DNA of 64,000 nt from Eledone cirrhosa. Its lineage: Eukaryota. Location of the stretch: NCBI GenBank assembly GCA_964016885.1, contig OZ024740.1, forward strand, positions 34,658,001 through 34,722,000, read 5' to 3'. How positions within the stretch are numbered: the stretch's first letter is position 1; each line of letters starts with the position of its first letter. The notes beneath the pieces were generated by a model. It worked only from the letters and a program-made list of their open reading frames with translations. It was not told the origin of the DNA and made no database searches. Position numbers and translations under genes: made by a program. Below are positions 37,302 through 37,442 of the stretch, one piece after another.

Positions 37302-37442
37302 TTTACTACATCAACGTAGTCCATGTCACAGTTTGTGATCAATACACCTCCAACATAAAATATAGTAGCATAATACAAATATACCATAGATTGAGTGAAG
37401 GCAAAGGCAATTCCCGTTTTCTGTGCAGTTGTCATAGCTACA
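37302..37442 (-). CDS. ABCB1: Antisense, out-of-order ABCB1-like TM11 exon (VAMTTAQKTGIAFAFTQSMVYLYYATIFYVGGVLITNCDMDYVDVV)
   Basis: Minus-strand acceptor TTTTTTTTTGTATTATCAG and donor GTAAGT. 141 nt, phase 2-2, no stop. Resembles human AHIFGITFSFTQAMMYFSYAGCFRFGAYL. Confidence 0.85.

What the first reader, a model, noticed from the sequence alone, without database searches (positions are those of the whole stretch)
37302..37442. Intact ABCB1-type TM11 exon on the opposite strand, in the wrong place
Seen: a 141-nt phase 2-2 exon with strong splice sites and no stop, 574 bp downstream of a + strand exon but antisense. By protein order it belongs two exons after 52795-52998, and I found no other minus-strand ABCB exon. 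Established: human ABCB1 has a 141-nt exon at the equivalent position. Possible explanations (inference): a local misassembly or inversion, an inverted duplicate, an interleaved antisense paralog with very large introns, capture by the co-oriented Penelope pLTR at 37706-38450, or mod(mdg4)-style trans-splicing from an antisense exon.
Basis: partly seen in the sequence, partly recalled or inferred. Interest (0 to 1): 0.75.

Follow-up and report, generated by a model that had tools for sequence, protein, structure and literature searches.

The report
Backwards copy of a transporter exon
A drug-pump (P-glycoprotein-type) gene carries a backwards 667-base copy of one of its own exons 40 kb upstream of the original; the original is in its proper place and matches the one spliced-looking transcript piece seen, so the copy is likely a young, non-working DNA-repair leftover.

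Summary
The 141-nt minus-strand exon is real, but nothing is missing from the gene. The true exon lies on the + strand at G000:C1:34736005-34736145, 14 kb past the window end, in correct order within a 12-exon, 581-codon open model. The antisense exon is the middle of a 667-bp inverted duplicate (37041-37707) of that exon and its intron flanks, 96.6% identical. A twin gene 1.23 Mb away, beyond an assembly gap, has the same insert and junctions, which argues against misassembly. Exon and flanks vary alike (6/141 vs 25/525 sites); an open frame is expected at this age. The one spliced-looking contig carries the sense copy's letters at both diagnostic sites, against trans-splicing. Junctions show a fold-back filler, no poly(A) and no clear target-site repeat: likely a templated repair insertion beside a truncated Penelope-like piece. 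The scan noted such backwards exon copies before, in four other genes of this genome and in other genomes. Ordinary; interest low.

The parts
37302..37442 (-). Antisense copy of the 141-nt TM11 exon, open frame, AG/GT kept; keeps Leu and Asp where the sense exons have Phe and Val. Its donor, the true sense exon, lies outside the window at G000:C1:34736005-34736145 (+)
37041..37707 (-). Whole 667-bp inverted duplicate of G000:C1:34735742-34736408: about 2.4 units of a 71-bp minisatellite, intron end, exon, intron start, SINE-like repeat
   Evidence: 96.6% over 669 columns to the sense donor; alignment of four copies
37041..37245 (-). SINE-like high-copy repeat copied with the exon; the left junction falls at its 3' end, on a 10-bp palindrome ('SINE' is a recalled label; ARAGORN found no tRNA)
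   Evidence: other copies end here (loose ends at 37041)
37536..37707 (.). 2.4 units of the 71-bp minisatellite that fills about 9 kb upstream of the donor exon
   Evidence: TRF output
37708..37712 (.). 5-nt filler at the right junction; with 2 nt on each side it is an inverted copy of adjacent sequence (fold-back)
   Evidence: 9-nt templated stretch, reached by 17 of 5000 random fillers
37713..38931 (-). Penelope-like retroelement piece (terminal repeat plus start of the ORF), cut inside the ORF at 37713; family name rests on recalled RT and GIY-YIG motifs in other copies
   Evidence: 12 of 18 fetched copies run on past 37713 with the same next letters; ORFs; Pfam found nothing in 37746-38105
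36650..36727 (+). 78-nt host ABCB exon just upstream of the insert
   Evidence: covered by an X4 contig at 36648-36728
15650..15793 (+). Host ABCB exon (TM7)
18496..18585 (+). Host ABCB exon (TM8, 90 nt); weak profile score (3.8 bits) but fits phase and frame
45063..45146 (+). Host ABCB exon (84 nt)
52795..52998 (+). Host ABCB exon (TM9-10, 204 nt)
1605..1845 (-). Second, older antisense duplicate: intron end plus 5' part of an NBD1 exon, from G000:C1:34535532-34535772 (about 124 kb upstream), 93% identical; may extend to 2232

Best explanation
The antisense exon is part of a 667-bp backwards copy of this gene's own TM11 exon and flanks, whose original lies in the correct place 40 kb downstream; the copy was likely pasted in by template switching during DNA break or fork repair and is likely not used for protein. 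Shown: the copy, its donor, its ends, the complete collinear + strand model, the same insert in the twin gene, and sense alleles in one contig. Inferred: a broken end at or in the Penelope-like piece copied from the nearby donor locus and rejoined through a short fold-back filler; this happened before the twin genes A and B split; the exon looks intact because it is young (about 1% change on its own line). Odds: non-coding leftover about 0.9; given that, DNA-level repair about 0.75, reverse-transcriptase route about 0.2.
For: Four copies in the genome, two sense and two antisense, by DNA and by protein search (4 of 4 candidates; 4 of 5 matches, the fifth a distant paralog). 12 + strand exons, all AG/GT, give 581 open codons that align without gaps to a full-length homologue at 59%. 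Homology to the donor covers 667 bp, mostly intron, and stops sharply. Variable sites: exon 6 of 141, flanks 25 of 525, Fisher P = 1.0; all 6 exon changes are non-synonymous, 3 private to sense copies, 1 to an antisense copy, 2 separating the pairs. A 562-nt contig of run X4 aligns to exactly the 141 nt, with no intron cover on either side, and reads the sense letters at 37320 and 37340; it has 4 differences to the antisense copy and 3 to sense A, the numbers that sense B would give (RNA nature and B origin inferred). Both junction words (20 and 21 nt) recur in twin B, beyond an assembly gap at C1:34791342. Three DNA-like runs of one sample hold contigs with the antisense letters at 37512, 37518 and 37532 (depth about 6, by subtraction). 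Donor only 40 kb away; no poly(A); no repeat of the left flank longer than 7 bp in 37708-39500; fold-back filler 17 of 5000 by chance. The same gene holds two more exon-fragment copies.
Against: Only one contig from one run of unrecorded type speaks to the mRNA, and contigs drop rare variants. No contig formally bridges a junction: two reach 23 nt past the left one, under the tool's 31-nt rule. DNA contig depth is about 2-7 in the flank left of the insert against 16-21 around the sense exon, which is unexplained (library bias or unassembled extra copies). No empty site was found, so microhomology at the left junction and any target-site deletion cannot be seen. The left end coincides with the 3' end of a SINE-like repeat and the right end with a co-oriented retroelement, which fits reverse transcription at least as neatly. 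The Penelope-like piece cannot be dated clearly before or after the copy (2.2% private letters, 6.2% from the column majority). The antisense copy keeps the ancestral Leu and Asp.
Confidence: 0.7

Rival explanations
1. Same dead copy, but made by a reverse transcriptase: synthesis primed at the SINE-like 3' end in the unspliced pre-mRNA, ran through the exon into the minisatellite and switched to Penelope RNA; or the Penelope piece inserted later and removed the original right end.
For: Left junction at the repeat's natural 3' end; repeat, exon and Penelope piece all co-oriented; Penelope elements are reported to move intron-containing genes (PMC3846280, passages) and to prime internally (PMC11167929, abstract); class 2 insertions may come from reverse-transcribed RNA (PMC5110952, passages).
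Against: Landing 40 kb from the donor in a 3.0-Gb genome is very unlikely unless the RNA was still tethered (inference). No tail, no target-site repeat. No piece of this element upstream of the donor: only three short hits elsewhere in 364 kb, so 3' transduction is not supported. Only one terminal repeat.
Confidence: 0.19
2. However it arose, the copy now acts in the + strand pre-mRNA as a complementary partner of the sense exon, promoting A-to-I editing or skipping of TM11.
For: Both lie in one transcription unit and would form a near-perfect duplex (computed -1157 kcal/mol for the isolated strands); retained in both twin genes.
Against: 40 kb apart, whereas Alu editing decays with a scale of about 800 bp (PMC4066801, passages; human data). 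It is one of 24 inverted pairs of at least 200 bp and 90% in the gene span examined. No constraint signal. The one contig includes the exon, and the only T>C change tallied for X4 lies in the repeat at 37193, not in the exon.
Confidence: 0.06
3. mod(mdg4)-style trans-splicing: a minus-strand transcript supplies an alternative TM11 exon (Leu/Asp form) to the ABCB mRNA.
For: Open frame, right phase, intact splice sites; ancestral residues kept; a co-oriented retroelement terminal repeat upstream could act as promoter (untested).
Against: A cis exon exists; the one contig has sense letters; intactness is expected by age.
Confidence: 0.02
4. Assembly artefact.
For: No formal bridging read seen; low DNA contig depth at the acceptor flank; palindrome and long TA runs nearby.
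Against: 3.4% divergence from the donor with 8 substitutions shared by both antisense copies; same junctions in twin B; antisense letters present in DNA-run contigs.
Confidence: 0.03

Closest known systems
Templated insertions at DNA breaks: class 2 TSIPs (PMC5110952, passages read) and MMBIR templated insertions (PMC8421209, passages read; PMC11724301, abstract read)
   Same: Donor left intact, no poly(A), no clear target-site duplication, short fold-back filler at one junction, inherited.
   Different: 667 bp from 40 kb away is longer and farther than the within-100-bp templates or 5-34-bp fold-backs described in the passages seen; TSIPs there come from distant sites; here the copy happens to hold a whole exon and no empty allele was seen.
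Penelope-mediated capture of intron-containing host genes in Adineta vaga (PMC3846280, passages read)
   Same: Intron-containing host DNA next to a Penelope-like terminal repeat.
   Different: Not framed by terminal repeats on both sides, no target-site duplication, element cut inside its ORF, copy lands inside its own gene.
mod(mdg4) trans-splicing (PMC13490949, PMC12692577, PMC4387717; search listing only)
   Same: An exon with intact splice sites on the opposite strand (opposite-strand arrangement recalled).
   Different: There the mRNAs depend on trans-splicing; here a collinear cis exon exists and matches the contig.
Inverted-repeat partners for ADAR editing (Alu pairs; PMC4066801, passages read)
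   Same: Near-perfect inverted pair in one pre-mRNA.
   Different: Spacing of 40 kb is about fifty times the reported decay length; no edit seen.

Membership tests
ABCB1/P-glycoprotein-type TM11 exon | Sequence match to the second membrane domain of ABCB full transporters | tested here: met
   Pfam PF00664 219-260, E 7e-4; human ABCB1 935-974; own profile positions 924-969, 26 bits
Templated repair insertion (class 2 TSIP / MMBIR type) | Intact donor elsewhere | tested here: met
Templated repair insertion (class 2 TSIP / MMBIR type) | No poly(A) tail and no target-site duplication | tested here: met
   No A-tract at the copy's 3' end; left flank repeats at most 7 bp, inside the retroelement, not at its end
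Templated repair insertion (class 2 TSIP / MMBIR type) | Microhomology or templated filler at junctions | tested here: inconclusive
   Right junction: fold-back filler, 17 of 5000. Left junction: on a 10-bp palindrome, but cannot be judged without an empty site
Templated repair insertion (class 2 TSIP / MMBIR type) | Empty allele or orthologous empty site | not testable with these tools
   No relatives held for this genome; the acceptor flank has 2 of 2 matches, both with the insert; other species' runs gave no cover of the exon
Penelope-mediated capture | Cargo framed by terminal repeats | tested here: not met
   One element piece on one side only
Penelope-mediated capture | Target-site duplication | tested here: not met
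Penelope-mediated capture | Introns retained | tested here: met
   526 of 667 bp are intron; also expected of any DNA-level copy
mod(mdg4)-type trans-splicing | No collinear cis copy of the exon | tested here: not met
mod(mdg4)-type trans-splicing | mRNA carries the opposite-strand exon | tested here: not met
   One contig, sense letters at 2 of 2 diagnostic sites; rare forms not excluded
mod(mdg4)-type trans-splicing | Own promoter and transcript for the exon | not testable with these tools
   No stranded RNA reads available
Editing-complementary sequence | Complementary partner in the same pre-mRNA | tested here: met
Editing-complementary sequence | A-to-G changes in the exon's RNA | tested here: inconclusive
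   None in the exon interior of one low-depth contig; contigs hide partial editing
Editing-complementary sequence | Conservation of the pairing part above its flanks | tested here: not met
   6/141 vs 25/525 variable sites; little power at this age

The most novel reading that the evidence does not exclude
This drug-pump gene repeatedly spawns backwards copies of its own exons into its introns (TM11, NBD1), and the TM11 copy, a fossil of the older Leu/Asp allele, works as a 40-kb-range pairing partner or rare trans-spliced alternative that tunes the drug-binding helix while the twin genes diversify in exactly that domain.
Probability: 0.06. Interest if true: 0.7.

Novelty: new member of a known kind. 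Interest (0 to 1): 0.15.

Why it matters
As found, it matters little: a dated example of local inverted copying that can mislead gene prediction and read mapping at this exon, and that records the exon's earlier sequence. With the similar cases noted elsewhere in this genome, it suggests such copies are a common by-product in these long introns. If the copy did drive editing or trans-splicing over 40 kb, it would give a new source of transporter variants. The side result, twin ABCB genes differing almost only by amino-acid changes in the membrane domain, may be worth more than the finding itself.

Tried and rejected
The look-up of sequencing runs: no RNA holder listed; X4's type is not on record and is read as RNA only from its exon-exact contigs. 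Runs X5 and X7 (another species label) covered only the repeats, not the exon, so no sister-species comparison. Inverted-repeat scan was swamped by TA runs. ARAGORN found no tRNA in the SINE-like repeat. tblastn and a phase-2 scan missed the TM8 exon; a phase-0 scan found it. Junction coordinates were one base off and were redone. Dating the Penelope-like piece against the copy was inconclusive; it used 18 of 54 matches, from 40 scored of 5130 candidates. 3' transduction from the donor rejected: no such element upstream of the donor's 9-kb minisatellite. Gene conversion between sense and antisense copies: no site groups asA with seA against asB with seB. The 5' part of the gene was only sampled (one TMD1 exon each for A and B), so full intactness of either twin is not shown. 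Paper searches: 'inverted duplicate, exon, intron, dsRNA, same gene, editing' gave 1 paper, on poplar methylation; 'octopus, ABCB1, P-glycoprotein, duplication' gave 0; these are the only searches behind 'not seen in print'. No supplements were opened. Nearby earlier findings: none.

Full report
Observation. The minus strand at 37302-37442 is a 141-nt, phase 2-2 exon with AG and GTAAGT ends and an open frame. It matches the TM11 region of ABCB transporters: Pfam ABC_membrane 219-260 and human ABCB1 935-974. It lies 574 bp after the + strand exon 36650-36727. So the sequence claim holds.

A sense copy exists. A DNA search of the own genome gave 4 matches from 4 candidates: this copy, a minus copy at C1:35926218, and plus copies at C1:34735979 and C1:35971139. 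A protein search gave the same four and one distant paralog (5 of 5). The first plus copy is 14 kb past the window end. A profile from 29 full-length homologues among the 150 hits placed the + strand exons in order. Twelve exons from 15650 to about 100030 (numbering continued), all with AG/GT, read open for 581 codons and align without gaps to homologue P0002 at 59%. The gene needs nothing from the minus strand.

Anatomy of the copy. The antisense exon is the middle of an inverted duplicate, 37041-37707, of C1:34735742-34736408, 96.6% identical. In its own direction it holds 2.4 units of the 71-bp minisatellite that fills 9 kb before the donor exon, the intron end, the exon, the intron start and a SINE-like repeat (label recalled). 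The left end is that repeat's 3' end, on a 10-bp palindrome. The right end is a 5-nt filler that, with two bases either side, is an inverted copy of adjacent sequence; 17 of 5000 random fillers do as well. Next comes a co-oriented retroelement piece, 37713-38931. Twelve of 18 fetched copies continue past 37713 into an ORF with RT and nuclease-like motifs that I recall as Penelope-type, so the window piece is cut mid-frame. There is no poly(A), no flank repeat over 7 bp, and no piece of this element upstream of the donor.

Real, and older than the twin genes. A twin locus B lies 1.23 Mb away, about 96-99.8% identical in collinear blocks, beyond an assembly gap. It has the same insert with both junction words. 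Eight substitutions separate both antisense from both sense copies. DNA-run contigs from one sample hold the antisense letters at three flank sites. Against: no contig bridges a junction by the tool's 31-nt rule, and depth at the acceptor flank (about 2-7) is well below that at the donor (16-21), which I cannot explain.

No sign of use. Variable sites are 6 of 141 in the exon and 25 of 525 in the flanks (P = 1.0), and 48-91% of simulated copies stay intact over the range of rates tried. A 562-nt contig from run X4 aligns to exactly the exon, with no cover of adjacent intron, so I read it as spliced RNA (inferred; type not on record). It has the sense letters at both diagnostic sites, 4 differences to the antisense copy and 3 to sense A, as sense B would. 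The antisense copy keeps Leu and Asp, as do the third paralog M and P0002; the sense exons likely changed to Phe and Val after the copy was made. That makes it a fossil of the older allele, not evidence of function.

Mechanism. Nearness of the donor, retained introns, no tail, no target-site repeat and a fold-back filler fit template switching in DNA repair, as described for class 2 TSIPs (PMC5110952, passages), MMBIR insertions (PMC8421209, passages) and fold-back inversions (PMC11724301, abstract). A reverse-transcriptase route stays open because one end is a SINE-like 3' end and the other a co-oriented retroelement (PMC3846280, passages; PMC11167929, abstract). Without an empty site the order of events cannot be fixed. 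Pairing with the sense exon in pre-mRNA is possible in principle, but 40 kb is far beyond the 800-bp decay scale for Alu editing (PMC4066801, passages), and this is one of 24 such inverted pairs in the span examined.

Recurrence. The gene has a second antisense exon fragment at 1605-1845 (93% to a donor 124 kb upstream) and a 66-bp sense fragment of an NBD2 exon. Of 12 mostly single-partner pairs of at least 60 bp and 88% in 364 kb, 3 contain exon sequence, while exons are about 1% of the span; the other 9 were not checked for being transposons and no test of enrichment was run. Earlier unchecked notes of this scan report like copies in PIG-S, EPS8, copine and cofilin genes of this genome and in RYR1 and KCNMB2 of others; I did not test them. 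That the animal is octopus-like comes from those notes and from recall of the repeats, not from a call of mine.

Verdict. A real, young, inverted intragenic duplicate; likely a non-working repair leftover; new member of a known kind; interest 0.15.

Noticed in passing
window exons vs twin B (G000:C1 about 35.45-35.99 Mb): Twin genes A and B differ at 11 non-synonymous and 1 synonymous codon in 292 second-membrane-domain codons, but 0 and 1 in 410 nucleotide-binding codons (Fisher P = 6e-5 for non-synonymous; one NBD1 exon not fetched). Suggests true paralogs diverging in the drug-binding half rather than haplotypes; dN/dS above 1 was not tested.
   Followed up: partly
G000:C1:35045379-35125982: A third, more distant ABCB paralog (M) lies between A and B; single copy in three searches.
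   Followed up: partly
window 1605-1845 (minus), possibly to 2232: Second antisense duplicate holding the acceptor and 5' part of an NBD1 exon, bounded by (TATG)n runs; also present in twin B at 98%.
   Followed up: partly
G000:C1:34745476-34745541: 66-bp sense copy (98%) of part of an NBD2 exon, about 1 kb upstream of the exon, also in B.
   Followed up: partly
window 36600-37063 vs L006:4924-6200: DNA contig depth about 4-7 at the acceptor flank against 16-21 at the donor flanks in run X1; library bias or unassembled extra 3' copies.
   Followed up: no
window 36118-36570 and 35338-35931; 25681-26208 with 32431-32955: Fold-back and inverted repeat elements just upstream of the insert, next to a 2-kb TA-rich run at about 32950-35050; a likely fragile stretch.
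   Followed up: no
window 20371-22701 (+), 26645-29887 (+), 39483-42317 (-): Long reverse-transcriptase ORFs in the introns: 777 aa, 1081 aa with endonuclease domain, and a broken element.
   Followed up: partly
G000:C1:34726892-34735913 and upstream of the window: Introns carry very long minisatellite arrays: about 127 units of 71 bp before the TM11 exon, and arrays of about 15 and 47 kb upstream.
   Followed up: no
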